DNA of 64,000 nucleotides from an uncultured Actinomycetota bacterium (GCA_963781695.1 CAWAGE010000001.1:79127-143126); one strand, 5' to 3'. Positions 40,681 to 57,489 are shown, numbered from the stretch's first letter. Numbers and translations: made by a program. The notes: generated by a model not told the origin, from the letters alone.

Positions 40681-40689
40681 GCGCAACAG

Positions 40690-40771
40690 TGGCAGGTGAA
40701 GGATTCGAACCTTCGAAGGCTAAGCCGACGGATTTACAGTCCGCTCCCATTGGCCACTCGGGCAACCTGCC
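40690..40771 (-). tRNA. tRNA-Tyr (GTA)
   Basis: GGCAGGTTGCCCGAGTGGCCAATGGGAGCGGACTGTAAATCCG..GGTTCGAATCCTTCACCTGCCA; long variable arm; full CCA not encoded. Confidence 0.97.
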
Positions 40772-41349: not shown

Positions 41350-41520
41350 CCCGGCATCGTTCTCGGCAGGACACAGCGGTGCAGGCGCGGTTGCAGTCCG
41401 CACCTGGACCGCAGAGCCTTCGTCGGGTCCGGCTTCTTCGAGTCTGACGTGCTGCATCCATGGCACCGCGAAGGCGGCTACCGGCTGAGCCGAGCGGACC
41501 CTGGCCTCCAGCACGGCCGC

Positions 41521-41823
41521 CTAGGCGAGCCGGCGCAGCCGGCGCACGACGAGCGGCTCGGCGAGAAGCTCGTCGAAGCGCGCCACGAACGTGGCCACGT
41601 GCCGGGTGCGGTCGTGAGCGTCGATGGCCGCCGTGTCGGCCCACCGTTCGTAGATCGAGAGCCGTGCCGGGTCGTCGTGGTCCTCGAGCAGGGTGTACTC
41701 CAGGCAGCCCGCCTCCTCGCGGCTCTGTCTGGTCAGCAGGGTCAGCGCTTCCTTGAGCACTGACTCCTGCCCTGCCCGGGCCACGAAGCTCGGCTGGAGG
41801 TGGACCACCCGGTCGGCGATCAA
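41521..41823 (-). CDS. ABM-family putative quinol monooxygenase
   Basis: SREEAGCLEYTL, IYERW, HDRTRH. Confidence 0.85.
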   Translation of the reverse strand: MIADRVVHLQPSFVARAGQESVLKEALTLLTRQSREEAGCLEYTLLEDHDDPARLSIYERWADTAAIDAHDRTRHVATFVARFDELLAEPLVVRRLRRLA

Positions 41824-43451: not shown

Positions 43452-44109
43452 GGTGGTCCTCCTGTCCGCGGTGCGCGCGGCTGTCGGCGAAGTAGTCGAG
43501 GGTGCTGTAGCGGCCGGTGTGGACCTCGGCGAGGTTGGCGGGACCGGGAAAGCCGATCACCTGCCAGCCGATCTGGTCCCTGTTGCCGCCGTAGATCGGG
43601 TCCGCCAGGAACCCCTGGCGAGTGTGGGTGACGAGCAGGTTGAAGAAGTCCATGTCCGCCTCGGCGTTGGTCTGCTGGAGTGCAGGCTCCACCGGTCCGC
43701 CGTACGCGATGGCCGGGGTGTCGCGCCAGGCGCGTTCCGCCTCGGGGCTGCCTGCCCGCTCGATGCGGCGCAGCATCTCGTCCTGCCGAGCGGCGTCGAG
43801 GTCGACGAACTCGACCTGGTGATGCTCGAGACAGAGCCGGTCCAGCTGCGCGATGCCGGCGACGTACTTGGACCGGGCAAGGTCGACCCGCTGCTGCCAC
43901 GCGTCGGCCCGGCGGCCCTGGAGTCGCTCGAAGCCGCTGCCGTCGGGAAGGGCGTAGATGTAGTCGATCCCCGAGAGGTAGCGATCGACGAAGTCGACGG
44001 TCCCGGCCTCCCGGGCCCCGGGGGTGTCGTCCGTCGGGATGATGCGCGCCATCGCCGCCTCGACGGTGGCGCGTTGGTGAGGGTCGAAGAAGGTCGCGTG
44101 AGTGGTCAT
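43435..44109 (-). CDS. gluconate-2-dehydrogenase subunit 3 family protein
   Basis: RIIPTDDTPGAREAG, GFLADPIYGGN, GFPG; no twin-arginine signal. Confidence 0.88.
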   Translation of the reverse strand: MTTHATFFDPHQRATVEAAMARIIPTDDTPGAREAGTVDFVDRYLSGIDYIYALPDGSGFERLQGRRADAWQQRVDLARSKYVAGIAQLDRLCLEHHQVEFVDLDAARQDEMLRRIERAGSPEAERAWRDTPAIAYGGPVEPALQQTNAEADMDFFNLLVTHTRQGFLADPIYGGNRDQIGWQVIGFPGPANLAEVHTGRYSTLDYFADSRAHRGQEDHHDHQA

Positions 44110-44139
44110 GGGTCCTCCGGAGGTGTCGGGAGTGCGGGA

Positions 44140-45060
44140 TCAGGCCACGATGAGCGGCCGGAGCGTTCGGTGGGCGACCGTCAGGCCGGTCTCGATCCGT
44201 TCCTCGGTGCCGCCCCAGACCGGGTCCTCGTGCTCCACGGAGAGCACACCGTCGAACCCGCCCTCGTAGAGCGCGTCGACCACCCTGACCCAGTCGACCT
44301 GGCCCAGCCCGGGAACGCGGTAGCGCCACCAGCCGACGTCCCAGGGGTCCTCACGCCCCACCGCCACGCCCGGCCAGCCGTAGTGGTTGCGCTTCTCCGG
44401 GAAGAGCTCGATGTCCTTCGCCTGGGCGTGCGCGACCTTGTCGACGTACGGCCGGACGGCCGCGACCGGGTCGATGCCCATCCACATCAGGTGGGACGGG
44501 TCGAAGTTGAGGTAGAGCCCGAGATCGAACATCCACTCCCACAGCTCGGGACTGTAGGCGAGGTTGCCCGGGTAGCCGTCGGGGTGCCAACCCTCCATGA
44601 CGCAGTTCTCGATGACGAGCTTGACGCCCTTCTCGCCCGCGTGGTCGACCAGGCGAGGGAACACCTGCTCGGCCATCCGCAGGTTCTCCGCCACCGACTT
44701 GCCCGGGTCTCGGCCCACGAACGTGCCGACGGTGGGGCAGCCGAGCAGGGCCGCGGCGTCCACGAGCGCCATCACGTGGTCGTTGACGGCGCGACGCTCG
44801 GCCTCGTCCGGGTGCAGGTTGTTGTCGTAGAACGCCAACGAGGACAGCGCGAGCCCGTGCTCGTCGAACAGCGACGAGACCCGCTCTGCCTCACCCGCGC
44901 CGAAGCCCTGGGCGTCGAGGTGGGTGGCGGTGAACGGTCGGTCGCCCAGGTCCGGCCAGGCCGCCACCTCCAGTGCCTCGTAGTGGTGCCTGGCCGCCCA
45001 CGTGACGATGTCCTCCAGGGACCGGTCAGGCAGGCAGGCGGTCAGGAATCCGAGCTTCAT
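44140..45060 (-). CDS. sugar phosphate isomerase/epimerase (TIM barrel)
   Basis: MKLGFLTACL, IENC, NFDPSHL, HAQAKD, SVEHED. Confidence 0.85.
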   Translation of the reverse strand: MKLGFLTACLPDRSLEDIVTWAARHHYEALEVAAWPDLGDRPFTATHLDAQGFGAGEAERVSSLFDEHGLALSSLAFYDNNLHPDEAERRAVNDHVMALVDAAALLGCPTVGTFVGRDPGKSVAENLRMAEQVFPRLVDHAGEKGVKLVIENCVMEGWHPDGYPGNLAYSPELWEWMFDLGLYLNFDPSHLMWMGIDPVAAVRPYVDKVAHAQAKDIELFPEKRNHYGWPGVAVGREDPWDVGWWRYRVPGLGQVDWVRVVDALYEGGFDGVLSVEHEDPVWGGTEERIETGLTVAHRTLRPLIVA

Positions 45061-46157
45061 GCGGGTACCTCGATCCAGGAGTCGGTCTTGGCAGAGTCGA
45101 GCACGGCCGCCGTGATGAGCGCGGCGCGGTGTCCGTCGGCGAAGGTCGGCAGCCCGGGGGCGACTCGTCCCGTCACTGCCGCGTAGGTGTCGGCCACGAA
45201 GGCGTTGAAGCAGTCCTGGTAGCCCTGCGGATGTCCGGCCGGAAGGAAGGAGAGGCTTCGCCCCTCCTCCGAGCCGAGGGTCTGCGGACCCCGGGGGACC
45301 ACCCGGTTCTCGGAGACACCACCGATCCACAGCGTGTCGGGCTGCTCCTGGTCGAACACGTAGGAGGACTCGGTGCCGTCGAAGGAGAACCACAGCTTGT
45401 TCTTGCGCCCCAGCGAGACCTGGCTGGCGACCACGGACCCGGTCGCCCCCTGGTCGGTCTCGAAGACCAGCGTTGCCCCGTCCTCCGTTCCCACCGGGCG
45501 GAGGCCGGCCGAGGTGACGCGTTCCGCGTGGGCGTTCGACAGCCGCGCCAGCAACCGGGTGATCCGATGACCGGTGACGAACTCCATCAGGTCGCACCAG
45601 TGCACCCCGATGTCGCCGAACGCCCGGGAGCCGCCACCGCGGCTCGGGTCCAGCCGCCAGTTGGTCTCGCTCCGGCCGGCGAGCCAGTCCTGCAGGTAGG
45701 AACCGTGCAGCAGCCAGAGCCTGCCTGCCTCGCCGGCGGCGATGCGGGAGCGGGCCTCCCGCACGGTCGGGTAGTAGCGGTAGACGAACGGTACGGCGTT
45801 CACGACGCCGGCCTGCCGGGCAGCGGAGACCAGCCGCTCGGCGTCGCCGACCGAGGTGGCGAGCGGCTTCTCGCAGACGACGGACTTGCCGTGCGCGATG
45901 GCCAGCTCGGCGAGCTCGACGTGGGTCGAGTTGGGCGTGCAGATGTGCACGACGTCCACGTCGTCGGAGGAGACCAGCGCCAGGGCCGACTCCGCCCCCG
46001 CCACAGCGCCCAGCCGTCGGGCTGCCTGCGCTGCCTGCTCGGGAGTCGAGTCCGCGACCCGGGTGAGGATGCCGCCGGCCGAGCGGATGGCGTGGGCGTG
46101 CACCCCGCCGATGAAGCCGGCGCCGATGAGGCCGGCACGAACAGGTGTGGTCGACAT
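45057..46157 (-). CDS. Gfo/Idh/MocA oxidoreductase
   Basis: LIGAGFIG, CEKP, HGSYLQDWL, GDIGVHW. Confidence 0.9.
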   Translation of the reverse strand: MSTTPVRAGLIGAGFIGGVHAHAIRSAGGILTRVADSTPEQAAQAARRLGAVAGAESALALVSSDDVDVVHICTPNSTHVELAELAIAHGKSVVCEKPLATSVGDAERLVSAARQAGVVNAVPFVYRYYPTVREARSRIAAGEAGRLWLLHGSYLQDWLAGRSETNWRLDPSRGGGSRAFGDIGVHWCDLMEFVTGHRITRLLARLSNAHAERVTSAGLRPVGTEDGATLVFETDQGATGSVVASQVSLGRKNKLWFSFDGTESSYVFDQEQPDTLWIGGVSENRVVPRGPQTLGSEEGRSLSFLPAGHPQGYQDCFNAFVADTYAAVTGRVAPGLPTFADGHRAALITAAVLDSAKTDSWIEVPA

Positions 46158-46161
46158 CAGG

Positions 46162-47157
46162 TCACTTCTTCCGTGCCAGCGCGACGGCCAGGATGATGAT
46201 CACGCCGCGGACGACCTGCTGCTGCGAGCTGTCCAGCCCCGCCAGGATCAGGCCGTTGTTGATCAGTCCGATCAGCAGCGCGCCGAACATCGTGCCGATG
46301 ACGGCGCCGCTTCCGCCGAAGAGGCTCGTCCCGCCCAGGATGACCGCCGCGATCGCCGAGAGCTCGTCACCGGCCCCCCACTGGAACCGACCCGACTGCA
46401 GGCGTCCGGCGTACAGCATCCCGGCGATCGAGGCGACGGTCGCGGAGATCAGCAGCACCTGGAACTTGATCCGACGCGTCTTGATGCCGGTGAACTCCGC
46501 TGCCGTTCGGTTGCCGCCGGTGGCCAGCACCTGGCGCCCGAAGCGGGTCTTGTTCAGCACCACCGCCCCGAGGGCCACGAAGACCCCGCCCCAGACGATC
46601 AGTCCGGGGATGGGCCCGAAGTCACCGCCACCGAAGGTCAGGTTGAAGGCGTCGTTGAGGATCGGCTGCGGTGCCGAGCTGGTGATCCACTGCGCCACGC
46701 CCGCGGCGATGCCGAGCATGCCCAGCGTGACCAGGAACGAGGGGATTCCCAGCATGCTGACCAGGCCCCCGTTGATGGTTCCGACCACGAGGCCGACCGC
46801 CAGGCCCGCCAGGATGCCGGGGACCAGTCCCCAGCTCGAGATCGCCATCGCGCACGAGACGCTGGCCAGGCCGGCCACCGACCCGACCGACAGGTCGATC
46901 TCCGCGCACGCGATCACATAGGTCATCCCGACGGCGATCACCGTGATCGTGGCGGTCTGGCGCAGGATGTTGAGCAGGTTGTTCGAGCTGAGGAATCCTT
47001 GGTCACCGAGAAGCACCGCGAAGAAGAGGAAGACCACGACGAACGCGATGTAGATGACGTAGCGGTGCCAGTCGACCCGCTTGAGGACGTCCAGCAAGGA
47101 CGTCGACGTGGTGGCGGCACCGGCATCTGCCGGGGCGGTACGGACGCTGTTGCTCAT
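46162..47157 (-). CDS. sugar ABC transporter permease (RbsC-like)
   Basis: IDLSVGS, IPSFLVTLG, TRFGR..ATGGN, AAVILGGTSL. Confidence 0.9.
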   Translation of the reverse strand: MSNSVRTAPADAGAATTSTSLLDVLKRVDWHRYVIYIAFVVVFLFFAVLLGDQGFLSSNNLLNILRQTATITVIAVGMTYVIACAEIDLSVGSVAGLASVSCAMAISSWGLVPGILAGLAVGLVVGTINGGLVSMLGIPSFLVTLGMLGIAAGVAQWITSSAPQPILNDAFNLTFGGGDFGPIPGLIVWGGVFVALGAVVLNKTRFGRQVLATGGNRTAAEFTGIKTRRIKFQVLLISATVASIAGMLYAGRLQSGRFQWGAGDELSAIAAVILGGTSLFGGSGAVIGTMFGALLIGLINNGLILAGLDSSQQQVVRGVIIILAVALARKK

Positions 47158-48662
47158 GAGTGCACTCCTTGCACAGCCAGTTGAAGGGTTTCCTCGTCCG
47201 CGATGTCGTGACGGGGCAGATCTGCTGAGACGGCCCCGTCGCGCAGGACCAGGATGCGGTCGCTGACCGCAAGGAGCTCGGGGTACTCCGACGAGATGAC
47301 GATGATCGCCTTGCCGTCGTCGGCCAGGTCGCGGATCATCTCGAGGATCTCGCTCTTGGTGCCGATGTCGACCCCGGCGGTCGGCTCGTCGAGGATGAGG
47401 ATGTCGGGCTCGGTGCCGAGCCACTTGGCCAGGACGACCTTCTGCTGGTTGCCTCCCGAGAGCAGCCGCACCGGCCGTCCCGGGTTGTCGGCCTTCACGG
47501 CGAACCGCGAGATCAGCCTGTCGGAGAGCTCCCGCGCGGCCGTCGCGCTCAGGAAGGGGCCCTTGCGGGTCCGGTCCAGGAGCGGCAGCAGCAGGTTGTC
47601 GCGCACCGAGTGCTCCAGCACCAGCCCCTGGGCCCGGCGGTCCTCGGGGATGAGGGCCAGACCGTGGGAGATGGCCTGGTGCGGGTTCGAGATCGTCACG
47701 ACCTTCCCGTGCAGCTTCAGCTCGCCGCTGTCGAGCTTGTCGATGCCGAACAGGGCTCGGGCGAGCTCGGTCCTGCCGCTGCCCATCAACCCCGCCAACC
47801 CGACGATCTCGCCAGGTCGCACCGAGAACGACACTCCGTTGACCCGCCTCCCGGCGCGCAGGTCGGTAGCCTCCAGCAGCGGGGCGGCCTCGGTGTCGTG
47901 ACCGCGGTGGCGATAGCTCAGCCCTTCGATCTTCTTGCCGACGATGCCCTCGACGATCTGCTCGGGGGTGACGTCGGCGACGTTCTCGGTGAGCAGCCGT
48001 CTTCCGTCGCGCAGGATGGTGATCCGGTCGGCGATGCGATAGACCTCGTCCATCCGGTGGGAGATGTAGATGATCGAGATCCCGCGGGCCTTGAGCCGCT
48101 CGACGAGGTCGAAGAGCGCCTCGGTCTCATGCTTGGCGAGGCTGGCGGTCGGCTCGTCCATGATCAGGACGCGGGCGTTCTGGCCGAGGGCCTTGGCGAT
48201 CTCGGTCAGCTGCCAGTACGCGGTGCCGAGGTCGGCGACGGTCGCCCTCGGGTCGACCTCGACCTCCATGTCCGCGAAGACCGCGCGTGCCCGGTGCACG
48301 GCCTCGCGGTCACTGATCAGTCCGCCTCTGCCCAGCGGCTCGGCGGTGAGGAAGACGTTCTGGGCGACGGTCAAGGTCGGCACCAGGCTGAACTCCTGGA
48401 ACACCATGCCGATCCCGGCTGCGCGAGCCTCGTGGATCGACCTGATCCGCACCGGCTGACCGCCGACCGAGATGTCCCCGCGGTCCATCGAGTACACCCC
48501 CTGGAGGATCTTCATCAGGGTCGACTTGCCGGCGCCGTTGCCTCCGGCCAGGGCGTGCACCTCCCCGGGCATGACCTCGAAGTCGACGTCGTCGAGGACG
48601 GTGGTGCCGTAGAACGCCTTGTGGATGCCGGTCATCTGCACGGCAGGAGTGGGGTGGGTCAT
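47154..48662 (-). CDS. sugar ABC transporter ATP-binding protein (RbsA-like)
   Basis: GNGAGKS, MDEPT, LSGGNQQK; two ABC domains. Confidence 0.92.
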   Translation of the reverse strand: MTHPTPAVQMTGIHKAFYGTTVLDDVDFEVMPGEVHALAGGNGAGKSTLMKILQGVYSMDRGDISVGGQPVRIRSIHEARAAGIGMVFQEFSLVPTLTVAQNVFLTAEPLGRGGLISDREAVHRARAVFADMEVEVDPRATVADLGTAYWQLTEIAKALGQNARVLIMDEPTASLAKHETEALFDLVERLKARGISIIYISHRMDEVYRIADRITILRDGRRLLTENVADVTPEQIVEGIVGKKIEGLSYRHRGHDTEAAPLLEATDLRAGRRVNGVSFSVRPGEIVGLAGLMGSGRTELARALFGIDKLDSGELKLHGKVVTISNPHQAISHGLALIPEDRRAQGLVLEHSVRDNLLLPLLDRTRKGPFLSATAARELSDRLISRFAVKADNPGRPVRLLSGGNQQKVVLAKWLGTEPDILILDEPTAGVDIGTKSEILEMIRDLADDGKAIIVISSEYPELLAVSDRILVLRDGAVSADLPRHDIADEETLQLAVQGVHS

Positions 48663-48729
48663 CACGAGCTCCTTCGGTCTTCCTGGGTGGCCGGCGGGGA
48701 GTGGGCCCCGCCGGCCACGTCCGGTGGTC

Positions 48730-49884
48730 CTACTTCTTGAAGGAGTCCACGAGGTCCTGTGGCGCGTCTGACTGGTAGACCTGCTTCCAGGCGTCCAGCA
48801 CGTTCGCGTGCTCGACCGGCAGCGCGCTCAGGGCGACGTAGGGCGGCGCCTTCTTGCCGATCAGCGCGCCCGCACCGAGCAGAGCCTCGGTGACGCCCTG
48901 GTCATAGGGGCGCTGGGCGCCGAGCCCGATCACGAGCTCGTCCTTGGCCAGGGCGATCGCCACGTTGGTGCCGAGGTCCTGAGTCGCGATCTTGAGGTCC
49001 GAGCGACCCGAGGCGCGGGCTGCCGCCATCACACCCTCGGCGGGAACGTCCCAGACCGCCCAGACACCGGCCAGGTTGGGGTTCTCGGTGAGCATGGCGT
49101 TGGCGGCACCCTGCGCGTCACCGGCGAAGTCCGGCCCGGCGATGCCCTTCTCGTCGGCGATCTTGATGTCGGGGTAGTCCGACTCGATCGTCTTCTTGAA
49201 TCCCTCGTAGCGCTGCTTGGTCACGAAGAAGTCGGCCTCGTGGTAGATGAGGCCGATCTCGCCCTGGCCGCCGAGGGCCTTGGCCATCAGGTGCGCCGAG
49301 GTCACGCCGTTGCCGTAGTTGTCCGCGGACACGACGGAGACGTAGTCCTTGCCGGCCTCGAGCCCCTGCGGGACGTTGTCCATGAAGACGAGCTTGGTGC
49401 CGGCGTCGGCCACCTTCTTGTACGCCGAGGCGGTCGCGACGGGGTCGGTGGGGATCGACACGATGATGTCCGGCTTCTTGACCATCACGGTCTCGAGGTC
49501 GGAGACCTGCTTGTCGGGCTTGAAGTTCGCATCGGTGACGGCCACGACCTTGATGCCGAGATCGGCGAACTGAGTCCTGAGCCCGTCGACCTGGGCGTTG
49601 GCCCAGTCGTTGCCGCCGTAGTGCATCACGATCGCGGCAGTAGCACCGAGGTCCTTGACCTGGGCGATCTCCTCGTCGGTGAGCTTCGCGGCCTCGGCCG
49701 GCTCGGGCTTCTCACCGTGGGGGCCCTTGCTCAGTACCTGGCCCTGGATCGCGGCGAGGGCCTTGTCGACCTTCTTCGCGACGCCGGGGTCCTGCTCGAC
49801 CGAGGACGTGTTGGCCGAGCTGCACCCGCTCAGGGCCAGCGCGAAGGCCGCGGCCGCGGTCGCGTAGCGGATCCGTGTGTTCAT
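48730..49884 (-). CDS. sugar ABC substrate-binding lipoprotein
   Basis: Lipobox LSGC; RbsB-like KQVSDLE, VSADNYGNG. Confidence 0.9.
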   Translation of the reverse strand: MNTRIRYATAAAAFALALSGCSSANTSSVEQDPGVAKKVDKALAAIQGQVLSKGPHGEKPEPAEAAKLTDEEIAQVKDLGATAAIVMHYGGNDWANAQVDGLRTQFADLGIKVVAVTDANFKPDKQVSDLETVMVKKPDIIVSIPTDPVATASAYKKVADAGTKLVFMDNVPQGLEAGKDYVSVVSADNYGNGVTSAHLMAKALGGQGEIGLIYHEADFFVTKQRYEGFKKTIESDYPDIKIADEKGIAGPDFAGDAQGAANAMLTENPNLAGVWAVWDVPAEGVMAAARASGRSDLKIATQDLGTNVAIALAKDELVIGLGAQRPYDQGVTEALLGAGALIGKKAPPYVALSALPVEHANVLDAWKQVYQSDAPQDLVDSFKK

Positions 49885-50744
49885 CGTGATTCTCCATCGG
49901 TGGTGGGGGCGGTGGTCGCGCCGGTCGTGGTCAGGAGCCGGTCGAGGTAGGTCTTGCTCTGGGCGGCGGCCTCTCGGGGATCGCCGTCGTAGGCGTCGAG
50001 CTCGACGATCAGCCAGCCGTCGTACCCGGTCTCGCGCAGCGCGTCGAGGACGCCTGCGAAGTCGATCTCCCCTGCACCCAGCGGCAGGAACTCCAGGGGC
50101 GACACCCGGGCGTCCTTCAGGTGGACATGACGGACGCGGTCCGGGTAGCGGCGGATCAGCTCGGCGGGGTCGCCGCCGCCGGCCGCGAGGTGCGCGGTGT
50201 CGGGGCAGAAGCCGATCCGGGTGTGGGGCAGCAGCAGGTCGAGCTCCTCGGGGCTCTCGACGATCGTCGTGAGGTGCGGGTGGTAGCACGCCTCGAGGCC
50301 GTGGTCCGACGCGATGTCGGTGACCTGGTCGAGGGCGGCGGCCAGGCGCTCGTAGTCCTCGGCCCGGGTGCCCGACGCTCGCCGGGCGCCCCCACCGACA
50401 ACGAGGTTGGAGGCCCCGAACCGCGCGGCGAGCTCGGCAGCCCGCGTCACCCGGCTGAGCTCCTCCGGGAGGATCTCGTCGTAGATGAAGTTGCCGCCGG
50501 TGTAGACGCCGACGAGCTCGACACCAGCCGACTCCAGCAGCGCGATGAGCTCCTCGGGGCGCTCGGCGAAGTCAGCGACGTTGCCGTCGAACATCTCGAT
50601 GCCCTCGTAGCCGAGGGAGCCGATCTCGGTGATGGCGCGGTCCATCGGACCGTTCACCCGGTACTGCAGGTCCTTGACGCTGGTGACCCCCACGGGGTCA
50701 CCTACGACGCCTCCCCAGGTGATCGTGTGGTGACCGACTCGCAC
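49881..50744 (-). CDS. IolE-like TIM-barrel sugar isomerase/dehydratase
   Basis: GHHTITWG, YHPH, CPDTAH, HVHLKD, IVELD; RBS AGGAGG. Confidence 0.85.
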   Translation of the reverse strand: MRVGHHTITWGGVVGDPVGVTSVKDLQYRVNGPMDRAITEIGSLGYEGIEMFDGNVADFAERPEELIALLESAGVELVGVYTGGNFIYDEILPEELSRVTRAAELAARFGASNLVVGGGARRASGTRAEDYERLAAALDQVTDIASDHGLEACYHPHLTTIVESPEELDLLLPHTRIGFCPDTAHLAAGGGDPAELIRRYPDRVRHVHLKDARVSPLEFLPLGAGEIDFAGVLDALRETGYDGWLIVELDAYDGDPREAAAQSKTYLDRLLTTTGATTAPTTDGESR

Positions 50745-50785
50745 GGTTGCCTCCTGTCTTATGTCCCTTCAGTGGGATTGGGCTC

Positions 50786-50827
50786 ATCTTAAGCACGTGT
50801 TGTGCAGAAGTCAACACCCACTAAACT
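50786..50827. promoter_or_regulatory. overlapping divergent promoters with a putative ROK operator
   Basis: Minus strand TTGACT (50809-50814), N17, TAAGAT (50786-50791); plus strand TAAACT at 50822; dyad CTTAAGCAC-N5-GTGCAGAAG (50788-50810). Confidence 0.65.
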
Positions 50828-50835
50828 TATGTACG

Positions 50836-52113
50836 ATGCGCCTCGACGAAAGGCAGGCAGATCCGATGGAACGAGCGCACGCGGTCTCCGTCCTGGCAGG
50901 CGAGAGCATCGAGTCCGTGGTGTCCGTGCTCGACGCCGTGCGCGTCTCCGGCGCGACGACCCGTCCCGAGATCGCACGGTTGACCGGACTCGGACGCAAC
51001 GTCGTCACGGACCGGGCGGGCCAGCTGATCGCCGCCGGTCTGCTCATCGAGGGTGCGCTGGGCCGCTCGACCGGCGGCCGGGCCCCGCGCGAGCTGCGCT
51101 TCAACGCCGCCGCCGGGGTGATCCTGGTGGCCGAGCTCGGGGCCACCGGCATCGAGGTAGCCGCTGCCGACCTGGCCGGCAGCATCTCGATGGCGCGGGG
51201 CGAGGCCGCGGACGTCACCCGGGGTCCGACTCACATCCTGGGGCGCGTGGCCGAGCTGTTCGACGAGCTCGTCGCCTCCCTCCCCGGGGACGCGCAGGTG
51301 TGGGGGGTCGGCGTGGGACTTCCCGGACCGGTCGAGTTCGACACCGGCACGCCGGTCTCTCCCCCCATCATGCCGGGCTGGGACGGCTTCGACGTCAGGT
51401 CGTTCTTCGCCACCCGCTACGGCGCACCTGCCTGGGTGGACAACGACGTGAACGTGATGGCTCTCGGAGAGCTCCGCGGCGGCCTCGCCACGGGGCACCG
51501 GGACGTCGTGCTCGTCAAGGTCGGCACCGGGATCGGGGCCGGACTCGTCTCCAGGGGCCAGCTGCACCGCGGCGCACAGGGTTGCGCCGGGGACATCGGC
51601 CACATGGCCGTGGGCGAGAGCACCGCGCAGTGCCGCTGTGGCCAGCTGGGGTGCCTCGAGGCGCTGGCCGGCGGGTATGCGCTGGGCCGCGACGGCCTCG
51701 ACCTGGCGCGCTCCGGGGAGAGTCCAGCCCTGGCCAAGGAGCTTGCCGCAGGACACGACATCACCGCGCAGTCGGTGGTCGACGCCGCGCTGGGTGGCGA
51801 CCCCGCCGCTCGCAGACTGGTCACAGAGTCTGCTCGGCTGCTCGGGGAGGCCCTGGCCCGGGTCGTGAACTTCTTCAACCCGTCGCTGGTCCTCATCGGT
51901 GGCAGGGTGGCCTCGGCCGGAGACCTCTACCTGAGGCAGGTGCGGCTCGCGGTCCTCGACCGATCGCTGCCGCTGGCCACTCGGTCCCTGGAGATTCTCC
52001 AGTCCCCGCTGGCCGACCGCGCCGGGCTCCGCGGCGCCGCGTTCATGGTGGTCGACGAGCTGCTCTCCTCGGTTGGCCTGTCCGGGCCTCCTGCGCAGGT
52101 GCAGGCCCGGTAG
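50836..52113 (+). CDS. ROK-family transcriptional regulator (alternative start 50866)
   Basis: N-terminal HTH, STGGRAP, DNDVN, GDIGH, CRCGQLGCLE. Confidence 0.9.
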   Translation: MRLDERQADPMERAHAVSVLAGESIESVVSVLDAVRVSGATTRPEIARLTGLGRNVVTDRAGQLIAAGLLIEGALGRSTGGRAPRELRFNAAAGVILVAELGATGIEVAAADLAGSISMARGEAADVTRGPTHILGRVAELFDELVASLPGDAQVWGVGVGLPGPVEFDTGTPVSPPIMPGWDGFDVRSFFATRYGAPAWVDNDVNVMALGELRGGLATGHRDVVLVKVGTGIGAGLVSRGQLHRGAQGCAGDIGHMAVGESTAQCRCGQLGCLEALAGGYALGRDGLDLARSGESPALAKELAAGHDITAQSVVDAALGGDPAARRLVTESARLLGEALARVVNFFNPSLVLIGGRVASAGDLYLRQVRLAVLDRSLPLATRSLEILQSPLADRAGLRGAAFMVVDELLSSVGLSGPPAQVQAR

Positions 52114-52742
52114 CGCTCGCGCGGGGTCAGCACGGCTGGGCGGACCGATGAACCGCCCGGGTTCGGCCCCGCTCCTTGTCTGGGTCCAGGAGGATGAACG
52201 CGATGCCGAAGGGCTCGACGACGAGTTGAGGACCAGAGCCGTCCGGCGGGCCCGAGCACGCCGTCTCGACATGGTGTGGGAGGTGGGCGCGTCAGGGCGC
52301 CGCTTGCCGACCGGCGCTCAGGCCATCTCGGGTGGTTGTCACTGTCAGAGTCGAAGCTGCCCGCACCGAGGAGTCGCTCGTGGCGCCTGATCGACACCAC
52401 CTCACGAGAGGCTGCGCACCGCGCCGGTCGACGAGTCGAGCCTAGGGCGGGCACGTTGCGCTCCTGCCATGCATCACCGTTCCACCTGATGATCAAGCGC
52501 GAGCAGCACAGCGGCTGGACGCGCCGCAAGCCGCCGCCGCGCCAGGCAACCAGCATGAGGGAGGAACCGCTCACGACCTACGAACCCTCGCGGGTATCCG
52601 AGTGAGCGTGCTCGCCTGCCTCGCTGGAGGTGCGTCTCGCGATGAGCCTCGTCGCCGCGCGTCGAGCCGGACATCCCGTCGATCCCCACAACCGGATGGT
52701 GACGCGGACGCGCGCGCCGGTGCGGGATCCTCGAGTGGCGGG

Positions 52743-53039
52743 TCAGTCATCCTCCGCCAGCGACCGCAGCGCCCGGTCCCAGCGCTCCCGGCGCTGCTCG
52801 AGGGTCTGCTCCCACCACGGCTCGCCCCGCTCCCCGAGACCGTGCTTGGCCAGGTCCACCCGGCGTCGTGCCGGCGCGGGGTCCTCGCCGGCACGGGTGA
52901 GGCGGCCCACCTGGGAGCGGGCGCCGAGCGCCGAGCGCAGCGCGGCGGCGACGTCCGCCGGCAGCGCCGGGTCCTCCCGCCGCCAGCGCCGACCGTCGAC
53001 CACCAGGTAGCGCGTGCCGTCGTCGCTCTCGTCGGCCAC
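52743..53039 (-). CDS. small hypothetical protein, copy 1 (98 aa)
   Basis: YLVVDGRRWRREDP..KHGLGERGEPWW; near-identical to 57146-57454. Confidence 0.75.
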   Translation of the reverse strand: MADESDDGTRYLVVDGRRWRREDPALPADVAAALRSALGARSQVGRLTRAGEDPAPARRRVDLAKHGLGERGEPWWEQTLEQRRERWDRALRSLAEDD

Positions 53040-53074
53040 GCGGATCCGCCCGCCGATCAGGACACGTGGGTCGG
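52753..53074. repeat. direct repeat, left copy (322 bp)
   Basis: Aligns to 57165-57489 with 4 substitutions and one 3-bp indel (compared by eye). Confidence 0.95.
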
Positions 53075-53113
53075 AGCGTGTCCACTCGCGCCGTCCCTTG
53101 CGCTTGAACGGAC

Positions 53114-53430
53114 GTGGACGAAACGGAACAGGTCAAGGCCGCTGTCGCGGCCAGGGAGTCGGATGGCAGCGTGCTATCGCGAGGTGCGGCGCCGAGTCGA
53201 CCGGGTAGCTCGCGAGGCCGAACGCTCGTCTCCCAAGCAGCCCAGCGCCGCGAACTCATCCGCGCCGCAACCCGATCAGGTCGCGCGGCTGTCAAAGGCA
53301 AGAGACGCCGCCGAGCTACGGCTGGTCGACGCGCTCAAACCGAATGCTCGGCGCCGGTCTCGATGTCCGAGAAGCAAGCGAGCGGGTCGGCGTCAGCTAT
53401 GCCCAGGCGCAACGACGCCTTCGCCATTCG
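53114..53430 (+). pseudogene. possible frameshifted HTH protein remnant
   Basis: Helical fragments in different frames: QVARLSKARDAAELRLVDAL, then MLGAGLDVREASERVGVSYAQAQRRL. Confidence 0.3.
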
Positions 53431-53472
53431 CGTTCCTCGGCATACGGACATGCCGAAGAGCGAGCGGTCGTA

Positions 53473-53787
53473 TCAGTGGGCCAGCTTGAGGCCGACCACG
53501 CAACCGATCAGGCCGACGATGAGCGCTACCTTCACAAGGCTCACCGACTCCGACCCGGTGACCATCCCGAACGCGACTGTCAGAGCCGCACCAATCCCGA
53601 CCCACACGGCATACGCGGTCCCGACAGGGAGACTTCGCATCGCGTGAGCCAGGCCGCCCATGCTGAGCACCAGTCCGACCAAGAAGACTAGGGACGGTGT
53701 GAGCCGCGAGAACCCTTCCGACTTGCCTAGGGCTACCGCCCACACGGCTTCGAGAACACCAGAGACAACGATAATCAACCACGCCAT
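53473..53787 (-). CDS. sugE: SMR-family guanidinium exporter Gdx (SugE)
   Basis: 104 aa, 4 TM, LEAVWA (conserved Glu), PVGTAYAVWVGIG. Confidence 0.92.
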   Translation of the reverse strand: MAWLIIVVSGVLEAVWAVALGKSEGFSRLTPSLVFLVGLVLSMGGLAHAMRSLPVGTAYAVWVGIGAALTVAFGMVTGSESVSLVKVALIVGLIGCVVGLKLAH

Positions 53788-53801
53788 GACGGACTCCTGT
53801 C

Positions 53802-53840
53802 GGCCGTCTTGTCGTGTCCGGGTACGGCTCCGTCGTCCGG
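53802..53840 (-). ncRNA. guanidine-III (ykkC-III) riboswitch
   Basis: Minus strand CCGGACGACGGAGCCGTACCCGGACACGACAAGACGGCC fits the ykkC-III pattern CCGGACGA..GCCGTACCCGG..GACAAGACGGC; immediately precedes the sugE SD. Confidence 0.88.
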
Positions 53841-54121
53841 CGAGCCTCATCGGCTCGTAGGCCGAGGATCTCACACGCCCATACGAGAGCACATTCGCGG
53901 ATACCCACTCTTGCCGCGTAGCGTGCGCTCGCAGACGCACAAACCGGACCCCAGCTGAGCAGACTGCTGAGTACAAGTAGCGACGGTCACCGCAGATCGT
54001 CCACGACACCGCCACCGACGATCTGCCACTCATGATCCAGTCGCTCGGGTGCGGTTCTCTGCGGTAGGCCATGTGAAAGCCGTCCCCCGGACACTCTCAT
54101 AACATTGGCCATATCGGTGGC

Positions 54122-54589
54122 ATGTCCACGCTCGCCCAGATTGCTCGCCGCTCCGACGCGGCGATCGGACAGGCACGCCGCGAATTGGTTGCCGCAGTGC
54201 GCGCAGCAGACGCTGCCGGCAGGACTCAGGCCGAGATCGCCCACGAGATCGGCCGCAGTCAACCGGCGGTCTCGCGGCTGCTTCGCTTCCACGGCACCGG
54301 CCCGCGGGCCCTGGCGCTGCGTAAGCACCGCGCCGAGGTCATCGGCCTGGTCGCGGAGGCCGGCGGTTCCAACGTGCGCGTCTTCGGCTCAGCTGCAACT
54401 GGCCGCGATCACGACGGATCCGACATCGACCTACTCATCGACCTCCCGCCGGCGATGGGGTTCCTCGAGGTCGCCCGACTCGAGCGACTTGTGTCGGAGG
54501 TCGTCGGCATACCTGTCGACATCGTGCCGACGGACGACCTTCGGCCGGACTTCGAGGATCGATTTCTCGGGGAGGCTGTGGCGCTATGA
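54122..54589 (+). CDS. HTH-fused minimal nucleotidyltransferase (MNT) antitoxin
   Basis: TQAEIAHEIGRSQPAVSRLL HTH plus FGSAATG..SDIDLLID. Confidence 0.88.
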   Translation: MSTLAQIARRSDAAIGQARRELVAAVRAADAAGRTQAEIAHEIGRSQPAVSRLLRFHGTGPRALALRKHRAEVIGLVAEAGGSNVRVFGSAATGRDHDGSDIDLLIDLPPAMGFLEVARLERLVSEVVGIPVDIVPTDDLRPDFEDRFLGEAVAL

Positions 54590-54936
54590 GCAGGACGATC
54601 GATGAGCTGCTCACTGAGGCGCTCGCCCACTTCGACGCGGCTACCAAGTACGCCCAGGTGACCGACCGGGACCCGCGGATGATCCTGGATGCCATGTCGA
54701 TCAGACTCGTCACGTCTTGGCCGACACCGGCTACGTCATCTGACGGGCTGCTCAGTTCAGAGGTCGTGTCGCACCCGCAGTGGCCAACGCGTCCTGGCGC
54801 AACCGGTCGAGCGCAGATCCGTTTCGCCCCGCACGTCATTGCACCATCGGGACAGAGTGGCGGCACAGCCGCCGCCATGGCGCGACAGCAACCCTCCCAC
54901 CCGCGGATCAAACTTCAGCCGATCAAGCCCAGTTGA
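54586..54936 (+). pseudogene. probable truncated HEPN/DUF86 toxin
   Basis: ATGA overlap with MNT. The first ~40 aa (LLTEALAHF..ILDAMSIRL) fit the DUF86 N-terminal helices; the remainder looks non-coding and runs into the convergent gene. Confidence 0.6.
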
Positions 54937-56254
54937 ACATCGGACCCCACGCGACGACCACGACGGCAGCCCACGCGGCGTACATGGGGAGATAGTCCGT
55001 CTGCCAACGCTCTAGTGCTGCGACCGGACACCTGTCTCGCACGAACGCCAGGCCGAGCGAAGCCGAGACCGCGAGGTTGACCAGGAGAAGGATGTTGAGG
55101 CCGAGCGCTGCCGCGCGGTTCGGAGTCAACCCAAGCTCTGCGATGCGGCTAGCCATGGCAACCAGCACCACGAGGTCGACAACGATCGCTGCGACCGCTA
55201 GCAGCACTTGCAGCCAGTCGGCGAGACCAGCCGGCGCCTGAGGTGGCCTCGCCGACAGTGCGTACAACTCCAGCGCCAGCACGAGCAGCAGGATCACGCT
55301 CATCAAGATGAGCAGCTCTCGCTCGACGTCGATGACGTTCGGGTCGATGGCGAACGCGACCAGCAGTGAGCCCAACAGCAAGATGGTCAGCGGCGAGAAG
55401 ACCCGCGCCAACACGGGGGCGATGTTCTCGATGACGTTCTGCTTTGACTCCACCAGCCAAGCCGCGATCAGCGCCACCCCAGCCGCGCCCATCGGCAGCA
55501 CCCACCCGAACAAGAACACTTCTGCGTCGACATCGATGGCGTTGAAGGTCCCGGCTGTCAGTGCCAGCAGGAGACCGCCACCGGCAGCGAGCAGGAAGTA
55601 GTACACCCCCCATTCGCCGGTGAAGCGGATGAAGTCCATGCGCCGACGTCCTGATCGCCAGTCGCCCCCAACATAGGCCACTCCGGTGAGGAGCCACAGC
55701 AGGATCGGGGCGTGGAGGGACGCCAGCAGCAGCGTGTCACCTTGCCCGTCGTCGAAGGGATAGATGACGAGCAGCGCACCGACGGCCCCGAATCCGGCCG
55801 CCACCGCGCTTAGCCGCAGGGGCGAGAGCCGTCGCTTCCACGCGAAGTAGGCAGCCATCCAGGGCAGCACAAGCACGGAGGCGAGTCGAACGAACAACTC
55901 CTCGTCCAACCAAGCCACGCCGGCCCGGATCGAGAGGGCTGCCCCGGCTCCGAGGGCGATGGCAGACCACAGGTCACGACCCCACGCGAGTGCCTCGCTG
56001 GGCTCGTCGGCGGTGAGGACAAGCTGTTTCCACAACCGCTCGGAGTGCTCGCGAGCGAACTCACGCGAAAGATCGTCGATGCTGCCCATCCGCTTGACAG
56101 CAATCAGGAAGGCCTCGTCGTCGGAGAGGCCGGTGGCGACGAGGTCGTCGACCTGACCGCGCAGGTGCTCTTCGAGCTCGGCCACGTCGTCCGTCGTCAA
56201 GGCGGCCCGGCGTTGGACGTAGACCCGCCACTGCTCGACCTGTCGCTCGCTCAT
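54923..56254 (-). CDS. permease-prefix-domain-1 membrane protein (PadR partner)
   Basis: ELEEHLRGQVDDL..DEAFLIAVKRMGS N-terminus followed by many TM helices. Confidence 0.85.
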   Translation of the reverse strand: MSERQVEQWRVYVQRRAALTTDDVAELEEHLRGQVDDLVATGLSDDEAFLIAVKRMGSIDDLSREFAREHSERLWKQLVLTADEPSEALAWGRDLWSAIALGAGAALSIRAGVAWLDEELFVRLASVLVLPWMAAYFAWKRRLSPLRLSAVAAGFGAVGALLVIYPFDDGQGDTLLLASLHAPILLWLLTGVAYVGGDWRSGRRRMDFIRFTGEWGVYYFLLAAGGGLLLALTAGTFNAIDVDAEVFLFGWVLPMGAAGVALIAAWLVESKQNVIENIAPVLARVFSPLTILLLGSLLVAFAIDPNVIDVERELLILMSVILLLVLALELYALSARPPQAPAGLADWLQVLLAVAAIVVDLVVLVAMASRIAELGLTPNRAAALGLNILLLVNLAVSASLGLAFVRDRCPVAALERWQTDYLPMYAAWAAVVVVAWGPMFNWA

Positions 56255-56616
56255 GGGCCGACCACCTGTGGCGCCGCGACCGGCATCCGGGCCTGCCAGA
56301 TGCGATCAAGCGCCTCGCTGACTACGGCCCATTGGCTTTGCCGATCGGCGAGCGCCGCGCGACCCGCTCTGGTGAGTGAGTAGTGCCTTCGGCGCCGACC
56401 CTCGTCCGATGTCTGCCAGGACGACTCCACCTGCCCTAGCCGCTCAAGCCGATGCAGCAGCGGATACAGCATCCCATCGGTCCACTCCATGTTCCCGTCG
56501 GACAGCTCTCGGATGCGCTTGAGAATCGCGTACCCGTAGGACGACTCATCGTCGGCGAGGATGCCCAACACCAGCGGGGTAGCCGAAGCCGCCACGAGGT
56601 CCTTGTCGATGCGCAT
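56251..56616 (-). CDS. PadR-family transcriptional regulator
   Basis: SYGYAI, DGMLYPLLHRLE, RRRRHYSLT. Confidence 0.92.
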   Translation of the reverse strand: MRIDKDLVAASATPLVLGILADDESSYGYAILKRIRELSDGNMEWTDGMLYPLLHRLERLGQVESSWQTSDEGRRRRHYSLTRAGRAALADRQSQWAVVSEALDRIWQARMPVAAPQVVGP

Positions 56617-56628
56617 GTTCACGCCCCT

Positions 56629-56671
56629 ATACCTAGAGCTGCAAGGTAACATACCTGGCGCTTCTAGGTAT
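56629..56671. promoter_or_regulatory. tandem putative PadR operators
   Basis: ATACCT-N9-AGGTAA (56629-56649) and ATACCT-N9-AGGTAT (56651-56671). Confidence 0.7.
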
Positions 56672-56799
56672 CGCACGAGCCAGCGCCTGTGCGGGTACAC
56701 CAGGACCTCCGACACCGGATCCTGGCTCCCCCACGCGAAGGCACCAGACGGTTCGCCCAGGGGCTCCGACCACGGCCTGCCCCCGGCGCAGGCCGAAGT

Positions 56800-57050
56800 G
56801 ACCGGCATCCTGCAGGATCTCGAATCACTGAGCCTCAACCGCTTCAGTGACCCTCTCGTGTGCGAAGCGGACACAGCCCGAGCCGCCCGGTCGACCGCAT
56901 GGTCAAGGCCTGCCTCGTCGAGCGCCGCCGCTCCGTTCGAGACCGAAGGGACGTCGAACTGACTAGCACCAGCACAGGCATCGTTCTGTCGACGCAGGTC
57001 ACCAGGATCGAGGCGCACCTGTACGCCCTGCTCGCAGCCAGCCGGGTTGA
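56800..57050 (+). pseudogene. possible MarR-family remnant
   Basis: Fragment VDRMVKACLVERRRSVRDRRDVELT resembles the MarR wing; upstream frames are disrupted. Confidence 0.45.
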
Positions 57051-57145
57051 GCAACCTGGAGTCGGCGAGCCGCCACGGGCGGTCCGTCAGGTCCTCGACC
57101 AGAGGCCAGCGGCTACCCAGCCAGTGGTGCTTCTCCGTTCACCGA

Positions 57146-57454
57146 CTACCGCTGGCCCGACTCGTCCGCCAGCGACCGCAGCGCCCGGTCCCAGCGCTCC
57201 CGGCGCTGCTCGAGCGTCTGCTCCCACCACGGCTCGCCCCGCTCCCCGAGACCGTGCTTGGCCAGGTCCACCCGGCGTCGTGCCGGCGCGGGGTCCTCGC
57301 CGGCACGGGTGAGGCGGCCCACCTGGGAGCGGGCGCTGCCGAGCGCCGAGCGCAGCGCGGCGGCGACGTCCGCCGGCAGCGCCGGGTCCTCCCGCCGCCA
57401 GCGCCGGCCGTCGACCACCAGGTAGCGCGTGCCGTCGTCGCTCTCGTCGGCCAC
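57146..57454 (-). CDS. small hypothetical protein, copy 2 (102 aa), directly after fdhF
   Basis: GTG 57454; same protein as 52743-53039 with an extra Ser and a different C-terminus (DESGQR). Confidence 0.78.
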   Translation of the reverse strand: MADESDDGTRYLVVDGRRWRREDPALPADVAAALRSALGSARSQVGRLTRAGEDPAPARRRVDLAKHGLGERGEPWWEQTLEQRRERWDRALRSLADESGQR

Positions 57455-57489
57455 GCGGATCCGCCCGCCGGTCAGGACAGGTGGGTCGG
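57165..57489. repeat. direct repeat, right copy (325 bp)
   Basis: Partner of 52753-53074; includes the last codons of the fdhF-like gene. Confidence 0.95.

What the first reader, a model, noticed from the sequence alone, without database searches (positions are those of the whole stretch)
52753..57489. Integrase-less islet bracketed by ~322-bp direct repeats that duplicate a whole gene
Seen: near-identical repeats (4 SNPs plus a 3-bp indel) each contain the fdhF 3' tail and the entire small downstream gene. Just outside the left copy the frame reads GHAPTHVS* versus GHKSRPQPTHLS* in fdhF. The ~4.1 kb between is visibly more A/T-rich and carries gdx, MNT-HEPN, a PadR pair and debris; no integrase or transposase is present. 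Inference: Campbell-type capture through homology with a related strain's fdhF locus, leaving a unit that RecA could excise or amplify.
Basis: partly seen in the sequence, partly recalled or inferred. Interest (0 to 1): 0.65.

Follow-up and report, generated by a model that had tools for sequence, protein, structure and literature searches.

The report
Decayed integrative islet with duplicated flank
The 322-bp repeats and the A/T-richer 4.1-kb islet between them are real, but the islet is the worn-out remnant of an ordinary integrase-type mobile element sitting in a recurrent insertion hot spot at the end of the yajQ gene, and the extra copy of the small gene is a scar of one sloppy recombination that also removed the integrase.

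Summary
Observation confirmed. Repeats 52750-53074 and 57162-57489 differ by 4 SNPs and a 3-bp indel. They bracket 4,087 bp of 65.9% GC in a 72.9% GC genome. Independent MAG and Logan contigs show all four junctions with the right SNP phasing, so a mis-join is very unlikely.

Interpretation partly supported.
- The right copy is the native small gene. Its last codons lie in a 25-nt copy (22/25) of the yajQ 3' end (57137-57161 vs 41326-41350).
- That sequence is the att site of a tyrosine-integrase element family (Int, Zn-ribbon, 120-aa HTH). It lies directly after yajQ in 10 of the 25 best integrase loci fetched from 201 genomes of the family.
- The "debris" beside the left copy is a frameshifted pseudogene of that HTH gene. 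Homology to intact elements starts exactly at 53075, so "GHA" is element DNA, not a foreign fdhF tail.
- The left copy is a 322-bp relic. One end is an illegitimate join at the spot where Int and Zn-ribbon were lost. The other end sits at the att-core edge, next to an 11.4-kb sugar cluster.
- Campbell re-integration of an aberrantly excised circle is one of several equivalent routes.
- HEPN is truncated. gdx with its guanidine-III riboswitch is intact.
- No evidence of excision or amplification.

Known kind; modest interest.

The parts
40858..41349 (+). yajQ (163 aa), the gene whose 3' end is the attachment site; tRNA-Tyr lies at 40689-40771 (-)
   Evidence: tblastn 91% to G013 YajQ; tRNA from ARAGORN
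41326..41350 (+). attL-side copy of the att identity block (last 19 nt of yajQ plus 6 nt)
   Evidence: 22/25 identical to 57137-57161; the same 19-mer forms the direct repeats of intact elements in G276 and G096
41351..52113 (.). 11-kb sugar-catabolism/ABC cluster with ROK regulator (near-native GC), lying between yajQ and the left repeat; absent from this position in relatives
   Evidence: ORFs and gene calls; relatives have no homologs here
52114..52749 (.). Non-coding flank of the left copy, with a VOC/glyoxalase-like gene fragment (about 52130-52291, -)
   Evidence: No Pfam hit for its ORFs; a 100-nt stretch has 76-78% copies at C5:3-97 and C7:1664383-1664488. The VOC assignment is my reading of the translated motif.
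52750..53074 (-). Left repeat copy (relic): small-gene ORF 52743-53039 (98 aa, ends AEDD*) plus spacer plus 18 nt of an fdhF tail (PTHVS*)
   Evidence: The 3-bp deletion and the Leu>Val change are derived relative to outgroups. Junction with the left flank is seen in two MAG contigs.
53075..53440 (+). Frameshifted pseudogene of a 120-aa HTH protein (CDS about 53114-53440) plus 40 nt of its upstream region; the illegitimate junction J2 is at 53074|53075
   Evidence: 70% nt identity to intact genes in G012 and G002, which sit divergently beside Zn-ribbon plus tyrosine integrase. G193 has yajQ-att-Int-Zn-HTH in that order.
53396..53462 (-). 3' fragment of a TetR-type gene
   Evidence: 83% nt over 78 nt to the end of a TetR gene that lies next to yajQ in G012
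53473..53790 (-). gdx-type SMR exporter (105 aa), intact
   Evidence: PF00893 2e-21; best NCBIfam match SugE 2.7e-29, below the curated cut-off
53799..53861 (-). Guanidine-III riboswitch
   Evidence: Rfam RF01763, 48.7 bits (cut-off 36), full length
54122..54589 (+). HTH-MNT nucleotidyltransferase (antitoxin type), intact
   Evidence: PF01909 2.6e-11; 94% nt to the G276 module that sits next to an integrase right after yajQ
54586..54936 (+). Truncated HEPN ORF: homologous to HEPN only to about 54720, the rest unrelated
   Evidence: No Pfam/NCBIfam hit; tblastn to G276 HEPN covers residues 1-47 only; no RX4-6H motif
54923..56254 (-). 443-aa membrane protein with permease-prefix domain 1 (PadR partner)
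   Evidence: NF038403 3e-13; 84% aa to G119, a different genus; no match at E<=1e-20 in any sampled same-genus genome
56251..56640 (-). PadR-family regulator (gene call in a MAG is 121 aa)
   Evidence: PF03551 3e-22; PadR plus partner are 85% nt identical to G119 over 1,726 bp
56880..57000 (+). Possible MarR-family gene fragment (weak)
   Evidence: PF12802 E=0.003, below the curated cut-off
57137..57161 (+). attR: yajQ' remnant; also encodes the native last codons (..SGQR*) of the right small gene on the other strand
   Evidence: G221's small gene likewise ends inside a yajQ' remnant; in G013 yajQ and the small gene are convergent and adjacent
57162..57489 (-). Right repeat copy, the native small gene (ORF 57146-57454, 102 aa) plus spacer plus the true fdhF tail
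   Evidence: contiguous with intact fdhF in MAG contigs L024 and L044
57472..59838 (-). FdhF/YdeP-family molybdoenzyme (788-aa gene call; ORF open to 59886)
   Evidence: TIGR01701 1e-277; gene call

Best explanation
The islet is the integrase-less remnant of a small tyrosine-integrase element of the Int / Zn-ribbon / 120-aa-HTH type. That type integrates at the overlapping 3' ends of the convergent genes yajQ and the small gene, which is a recurrent hot spot in this bacterial family. Over time the element picked up or swapped cargo (riboswitch-gdx, MNT-HEPN, PadR with partner) and decayed. The right repeat copy is the original chromosomal small gene, still joined to the attR core. The left copy is a 322-bp relic of the chromosomal flank of that att site. 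One illegitimate join (J2, 53074|53075) connected a point 18 nt inside the fdhF tail to the intergenic region between the element's HTH gene and its Zn-ribbon/integrase genes. This happened either as aberrant excision into a 4,415-bp circle [islet + attR + small gene] that re-entered by homologous recombination, or as a staggered exchange between two sister or strain copies of the locus. Both routes duplicate the small gene and delete Int and Zn-ribbon. The left copy's other end lies at the att-core edge, where the 11.4-kb sugar cluster abuts it. That cluster was therefore inserted at the same hot spot, before or after the join. Shown: repeat anatomy, att remnant, pseudogene identity, hot-spot usage in relatives, junction positions. 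Inferred: order of events and the form of the intermediate. Today only gdx with its riboswitch, MNT and PadR/partner look functional. The 322-bp repeats could allow RecA-mediated loss or amplification, but nothing shows that this happens.
For: The repeat is real and all four junctions are seen independently with copy-specific SNPs. 57137-57161 matches the yajQ 3' end 22/25 and encodes the native ..GQR* end of the right copy. G013 has yajQ and the small gene adjacent and convergent. G221's small gene also ends in a yajQ' remnant. Intact elements carry 19-nt direct repeats of the yajQ end: G276 and G096. Of the 25 best integrase loci fetched from 201 family genomes, 10 lie directly after yajQ. 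G193 shows yajQ-att-Int(-)-Zn(-)-HTH(+). The window's HTH pseudogene points the same way, and its homology to intact elements begins exactly at 53075, 40 nt upstream of the start codon, where Zn/Int should follow. MNT-HEPN' is 94% identical to a module beside a yajQ-adjacent integrase in G276, and the TetR fragment matches a yajQ-adjacent gene in G012. The islet is compositionally foreign. Relatives have at most one small-gene copy. The L/R homology ends within 0-3 nt of the att block.
Against: No genome with the intact precursor at this locus, no empty site and no circle was found, so the order of events is inference. The left flank just outside the left copy shows no convincing att core. The link between the sugar cluster's insertion and the hot spot rests on position alone. 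The 1.5% divergence between copies fits either two strains or long in-situ decay. Polarisation with outgroups is clear for only 2 of 5 differences. Raw reads could not be examined. The MarR fragment is weak.
Confidence: 0.72

Rival explanations
1. First reader's version. An integrase-independent circle that happened to carry a fragment of a related strain's fdhF/small-gene locus was captured purely by RecA-mediated Campbell recombination into the resident small gene. The islet never depended on site-specific recombination here.
For: The product topology is compatible. The copies differ by 1.5%, as expected for two strains. There is no integrase in the window. The islet is foreign in composition.
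Against: The supposed foreign fdhF tail (GHA) is element DNA. The islet carries the attR core and an HTH pseudogene of a yajQ-targeting integrase element, so its presence at this locus is explained by site-specific integration. The native downstream sequence follows the right copy, so the recipient locus cannot have been the undisturbed one. The Campbell step itself survives as one route within the best explanation.
Confidence: 0.15
2. Purely in-situ origin. The 4,415-bp unit 53075-57489 was duplicated in tandem by unequal illegitimate sister-chromatid exchange. A later deletion, or legitimate att x att excision, removed Int, Zn-ribbon and the first islet copy, leaving the first small-gene copy as the left repeat. 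The sugar cluster was inserted afterwards.
For: It needs no second strain. Legitimate excision between attL and the first attR would explain why the left copy ends at the att edge and why the integrase is gone. Two differences are clearly derived in the left copy, as expected for a decaying duplicate.
Against: It needs three events and enough time for 1.5% divergence, while all sampled strains are 99.6-100% identical here. No tandem intermediate is known.
Confidence: 0.2
3. e14/icd-like design. The element's attP naturally carries a 322-bp surrogate copy of the small gene and fdhF tail, and the repeats are simply long attL/attR.
For: The repeat directly abuts the att core. Elements that carry replacement 3' ends are known (from my knowledge: e14 and phage 21 in E. 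coli icd).
Against: Intact relatives (G276, G096) have only 19-nt repeats and carry no small-gene copy. The inner end of the left copy cuts the element's own divergent promoter region and removes Int, which no functional attP would do. Relatives never have two small-gene copies.
Confidence: 0.04
4. Assembly artefact. The true state is one repeat in the chromosome plus a separate 4.4-kb circular molecule or a strain mixture.
For: MAG contigs break inside the repeat.
Against: MAG contig L024, which starts in fdhF, runs through the repeat to 57203 and carries the right-copy base at 57215. That base is otherwise linked to the islet's right end (L045). The left-flank contigs (L074, L075) carry the left-copy base at the equivalent site. 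Both full-length products occur on two long contigs, and no hybrid product exists in a 15-billion-protein collection.
Confidence: 0.03

Closest known systems
Small tyrosine-integrase integrative elements that target the 3' end of a gene and leave short direct repeats (here the yajQ-targeting Int / Zn-ribbon / HTH elements seen in G276, G096, G193 and G207)
   Same: Same att core (yajQ 3' end), same orientation of the HTH gene, shared cargo (MNT-HEPN at 94% nt), same chromosomal hot spot between yajQ and the small gene/nuo side.
   Different: Integrase and Zn-ribbon genes are gone and the HTH gene is frameshifted. An 11.4-kb metabolic cluster lies inside the att-bracketed region. A 322-bp piece of the chromosomal flank is duplicated.
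Specialised-transduction-type aberrant excision (lambda dgal/dbio) followed by homology-dependent integration; equivalently, homology-facilitated illegitimate recombination (from my knowledge)
   Same: One illegitimate join removes one end of the element (the int end). It adds adjacent host DNA, which then provides homology for Campbell-type re-entry and ends up duplicated.
   Different: No phage or packaging is involved. The intermediate is inferred, not observed. The captured host segment is only about 350 bp.
CIMEs (cis-mobilisable elements: att-flanked, integrase-less derivatives of ICEs/IMEs, described in Streptococcus thermophilus; from my knowledge)
   Same: An integrase-less remnant still bounded by att-derived sequence, which a related element's integrase could in principle act on.
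   Different: The attL partner is 15.8 kb away, beyond an unrelated gene cluster. No integrase of this clade is present in the genome (best hits 32-40% identity). Mobilisation is untested.
Type II amplifiable units of DNA (AUDs) of Streptomyces: units flanked by direct repeats that amplify by homologous recombination (from my knowledge)
   Same: A 4.4-kb unit bracketed by direct repeats in a high-GC actinobacterium, carrying a gene (gdx) for which extra copies could pay.
   Different: The repeats are shorter (322 bp versus about 0.7-2 kb). No amplification or copy-number evidence exists.

Membership tests
Integrase-type genomic island at a gene-3'-end att site | Direct repeats of the att core at both ends | tested here: met
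   41326-41350 vs 57137-57161, 22/25; the same core forms the repeats of intact elements
Integrase-type genomic island at a gene-3'-end att site | Integrase gene next to one att end | tested here: not met
   No integrase match in the window. Only the neighbouring HTH gene survives, as a pseudogene cut 40 nt upstream of its start. The islet is therefore a remnant, not a functional member.
Integrase-type genomic island at a gene-3'-end att site | Same site occupied by related elements in other genomes | tested here: met
   10 of the 25 best integrase loci fetched from 201 family genomes lie directly after yajQ
Integrase-type genomic island at a gene-3'-end att site | Atypical composition | tested here: met
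   65.9% vs 72.9% GC, lowest 0.5% of windows; GC3 74-82% vs 87-96%. This holds for 53075-57161 only; the sugar cluster is near-native.
Campbell-type (homologous) integration of a circle | Direct repeats of a chromosomal segment flanking the insert, with the inner flanks joinable into one circle | tested here: met
   The 322-bp repeats bracket a 4,415-bp unit. This is necessary but not sufficient, since staggered exchange gives the same product.
Campbell-type (homologous) integration of a circle | Circle or empty site observable in the population | tested here: inconclusive
   No hybrid small-gene product in the protein collection. No empty-site pattern in JGI metagenome contigs or GTDB genomes.
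Type VII MNT-HEPN (MntA/HepT) toxin-antitoxin | HEPN toxin with RX4-6H RNase motif | tested here: not met
   The ORF matches G276 HEPN only over residues 1-47; no family hit and no motif
Type VII MNT-HEPN (MntA/HepT) toxin-antitoxin | MNT nucleotidyltransferase antitoxin | tested here: met
   PF01909 2.6e-11; weak MntA model match at 1.1e-7, below cut-off
Guanidine-III riboswitch controlled Gdx exporter | Riboswitch above the Rfam gathering score, immediately upstream of an SMR gene | tested here: met
   RF01763 at 48.7 bits vs 36; the riboswitch ends 9 nt before the SMR start; SMR PF00893 2e-21
Amplifiable unit of DNA (AUD type II) | Observed tandem amplification | not testable with these tools

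The most novel reading that the evidence does not exclude
The 4.4-kb repeat-bracketed unit could behave as a RecA-driven copy-number switch for the riboswitch-gdx cassette. It would amplify in tandem under guanidinium or guanylurea stress and collapse or be lost without it, giving an integrase-less islet a second life as an amplifiable unit in an environmental actinobacterium.
Probability: 0.1. Interest if true: 0.55.

Novelty: new member of a known kind. Interest (0 to 1): 0.33.

Why it matters
It is a clean natural example of how an integrative element loses its integrase and becomes fixed. A single illegitimate join at an insertion hot spot deletes the recombinase and duplicates the neighbouring host gene. 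The result looks like an "integrase-less island with long repeats". It warns against reading such repeats as a new capture mechanism. As a by-product, it defines a conserved attachment site (the yajQ 3' end, overlapping a convergent small gene) and a small Int/Zn-ribbon/HTH element family that shuttles toxin-antitoxin and exporter cargo among Nocardioidaceae-like genomes. The practical consequence is limited: gdx may be lost or amplified through the repeats.

Tried and rejected
- Empty site: an exact pattern of flank + 315-335 nt + fdhF flank found nothing in metagenome contigs or genome contigs.
- Exact-protein look-ups of both small proteins, gdx and YajQ returned nothing outside masked records.
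- Searching inside the MAG records by handle was not possible.
- A diverged fdhF tail upstream of the left copy was rejected. The frame is open for only 38 codons, has no FdhF similarity, and the DNA is element-derived.
- Ancient paralogues homogenised by gene conversion were rejected. No relative has two copies.
- tRNA-Tyr as the att site was rejected. Its 3' end points away from the region, and the repeats are of the yajQ end.
- The integrase of the G012/G002 HTH-bearing elements seems tied to a tRNA-Ser region there. The same Zn/HTH module also occurs with yajQ-targeting integrases, so I did not use G012/G002 to infer the target.
- Pseudo-att similarity at the fdhF-tail side of J2 was only a short inverted match and was judged chance.
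- A 4-nt TCGT/TCCT duplication at the ends of the sugar cluster is too weak to call.
- SNP polarisation with outgroups resolved only 2 of 5 differences.
- Literature searches for a yajQ att site found nothing.

Full report
OBSERVATION

The repeat finder and a local alignment place the two copies at 52750-53074 and 57162-57489. Within 52753-53074 they differ by four substitutions and one 3-bp indel, exactly as reported. The genome (7 contigs, 3.77 Mb) has no third copy.

On the minus strand each copy holds three things:
- the last five codons and the stop of an FdhF/YdeP-family molybdoenzyme (TIGR01701, 1e-277);
- a 17-nt spacer;
- a roughly 100-aa conserved actinobacterial ORF with no Pfam or NCBIfam family.

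The duplication ends five to six codons before the right copy's stop. The two products therefore differ at the C-terminus (left ...AEDD*, 98 aa; right ...ADESGQR*, 102 aa).

The 4,087 bp in between are 65.9% GC. Same-size windows across the genome average 72.9 +/- 2.1%, which puts the islet in the lowest 0.5%. GC3 is 74-82% in the islet against 87-96% in neighbouring genes.

IS IT AN ASSEMBLY ARTEFACT?

- Two NCBI MAGs and several Logan run assemblies carry this DNA at 99.6-100% identity.
- Contigs L074 and L075 run from the sugar cluster through the left flank into the left copy, with left-type SNPs.
- L045 runs from inside the left copy (left-type SNPs) across the whole islet into the right copy (right-type SNPs). 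L025 and L047 confirm each inner junction.
- L024 and L044 run from fdhF into the right copy. L024 reaches 57203 and carries the right-type base at 57215, the same base that is linked to the islet's right end.

A chromosome with one repeat plus a free circle would put the left-flank-linked base at that position. That alternative is excluded for this MAG.

Both full-length small proteins occur on two long contigs. The 90% cluster contains no hybrid form.

WHAT THE ISLET CONTAINS

- An SMR/SugE-type exporter (53473-53790, -) sits 9 nt downstream of a full-length guanidine-III riboswitch (53799-53861; 48.7 bits against a cut-off of 36). This is a gdx cassette and looks intact.
- An HTH-MNT nucleotidyltransferase (54122-54589) is followed by an ORF that matches a genuine HEPN only over its first 47 residues and then diverges. 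It has no RX4-6H motif, so the toxin is truncated.
- A PadR regulator and its 443-aa permease-prefix membrane partner (54923-56640) are 85% identical at the DNA level to a pair in a different genus (G119). They had no match at E<=1e-20 in any sampled same-genus genome.
- A weak MarR-like fragment lies near 56.9 kb.

THE DEBRIS IS THE KEY

The 400 bp between the left copy and gdx is not random.
- A DNA search of the genus showed that 53074-53274 matches (67-70%) a 120-aa HTH gene in two same-genus genomes, G012 and G002.
- The window's version needs several frame changes to be read, so it is a pseudogene.
- In both relatives the intact gene lies divergently next to a 116-aa Zn-ribbon gene and a 506-aa tyrosine integrase.
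- The three-way alignment shows that homology to these elements begins exactly at 53075, with a 15-nt exact match that includes the shared G at 53074. That point is 40 nt upstream of the HTH start codon.
- In the intact elements the next thing upstream is the Zn-ribbon/integrase operon. Here it is the left repeat.

True FdhF tails in relatives read ...GHK(S/A)(R/H)PQP(T/E)HLS*. The resemblance outside the repeat is therefore a coincidence.

THE ATTACHMENT SITE

In G276 the MNT-HEPN module is 94% identical to ours. It lies beside a tyrosine integrase directly after yajQ, and the 2.3-kb islet is bracketed by a 19-nt repeat of the yajQ 3' end.

In our window yajQ is at 40858-41349. Its last 19 nt plus 6 more (41326-41350) recur, 22 of 25 identical, at 57137-57161, immediately beside the right repeat. 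On the opposite strand that block encodes the last codons (..SGQR*) of the right small gene.

Relatives show the following:
- In G013, yajQ and the small gene are convergent and adjacent.
- In G221, the small gene also ends (..GQR*) inside a yajQ' remnant.

The right copy is therefore the native gene at attR. Everything from 41351 to 57136 (15.8 kb) lies inside the att-bracketed interval.

The site is a family-wide hot spot.
- Of the 25 best integrase loci fetched from 201 genomes of the family, 10 have yajQ ending just before the integrase.
- G193 shows the full order yajQ-att-Int(-)-Zn-ribbon(-)-HTH(+).
- G096 has a complete 3.4-kb element with 19-nt repeats between yajQ and the nuoI side.

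This is the architecture our pseudogene predicts.

The small TetR fragment at 53396-53462 also matches a gene that lies next to yajQ in G012.

WHAT THE LEFT COPY IS

The left copy has two non-native ends.
- Inner end (J2, 53074|53075): joins a point 18 nt inside an fdhF tail to the HTH/Zn intergenic region. This is an illegitimate join with 1 nt of microhomology.
- Outer end (52749|52750): coincides, within 0-3 nt, with the edge of the att block as seen at the right copy. Beyond it lie 636 bp of non-coding DNA with a gene fragment, then the ROK-regulated sugar cluster. Relatives do not have that cluster here.

The simplest reading has three parts:
1. The Int/Zn/HTH element integrated at yajQ|small gene.
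2. One illegitimate event created J2. It could have been aberrant excision giving a 4,415-bp circle [islet-attR-small gene-18 nt fdhF] that re-entered by homology (or by an integrase in trans). Equally it could have been a staggered crossover between two copies or haplotypes of the locus. Either way the small gene is duplicated and Int plus Zn-ribbon are removed.
3. The sugar cluster occupies the same hot spot against the left copy, inserted either before the join (in the partner haplotype) or after it.

I cannot order these steps.

The 1.5% divergence fits two strains, but it also fits a decaying duplicate. The 3-bp deletion and the Leu-to-Val change are derived in the left copy. The other three differences cannot be polarised.

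A Campbell step through the small-gene homology remains a valid route, and the unit could in principle be excised or amplified by RecA. Three things do not hold:
- the idea of an integrase-independent island;
- the fdhF-tail clue;
- the implied undisturbed recipient locus.

An e14/icd-style long attP is unlikely. Intact relatives carry only 19-nt repeats and no small-gene copy, and J2 cuts the element's own regulatory region. Ancient paralogues are excluded, because relatives have at most one copy.

NOVELTY

All the mechanisms are known: integrase islands at gene 3' ends, aberrant excision, homology-assisted recombination, decay to integrase-less remnants. I found no literature on a yajQ attachment site in the held library, so the element family and its site may be undescribed. 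They are nonetheless ordinary members of a known kind. Interest is modest. The only reading with more appeal is that the repeats act as a copy-number switch for gdx, and that is untested.

Noticed in passing
window 40858-41350 and 57137-57161; loci L060, L076-L083, L087, L094, L101, L102: The 3' end of yajQ, overlapping the end of a convergent small gene, is a conserved attachment site for a clade of tyrosine integrases in this family. These often come with a 116-aa Zn-ribbon gene and a divergent 120-aa HTH gene, and carry toxin-antitoxin cargo. Of the 25 best integrase loci, 10 lie directly after yajQ. No paper in the held library mentions yajQ together with integrase or attB.
   Followed up: partly
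L067 (G238), L068 (G334) versus window, L066 (G221), L022 (G006): Within the genus the FdhF/YdeP gene lies on either side of the small gene. In G238 and G334 the order is small gene, fdhF, then convergent yajQ. Here and in G221 and G006 it is nuoI, fdhF, small gene. In G013 and G012 fdhF is absent and nuoI runs straight into the small gene. The small gene seems to anchor a very plastic interval.
   Followed up: partly
L074 (GCA_049587135.1, JBAVDH010000050.1) positions 1-700 versus window 41351-41568: In one MAG of the same population the sugar cluster's left flank differs. Identity drops to 77% at window 41451-41568. Further left there is an IS256-like transposase fragment (my reading of the translated motif) instead of yajQ. 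A second MAG's contig breaks at 41550. This suggests strain-level structural variation at the cluster's left edge.
   Followed up: partly
window 52149-52253; genome C5:3-97 and C7:1664383-1664488: A roughly 100-nt stretch just after the ROK gene has 76-78% copies elsewhere in the genome, one at the very start of a contig, and in several relatives. Translated on the minus strand it looks like the C-terminal part of a VOC/glyoxalase-type protein, so it is probably a gene fragment.
   Followed up: partly
window 57146-57454 and homologs: The duplicated small protein (about 100 aa, motif YLVVDGRRWRxxDP...HGLGERGxxWWEQ) is widespread in Actinobacteria. It has no Pfam or NCBIfam model and carries contradictory database names ("2-polyprenylphenol hydroxylase", "biopolymer transporter Tol"). 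It usually sits beside the stand-alone nuoB-C-I / FdhF module.
   Followed up: no
L060 1436-2365 (G276), L082 (G207), L087 (G099): Several yajQ-adjacent integrases are themselves frameshifted or carry internal stops. Decay of these small elements in place seems common.
   Followed up: no
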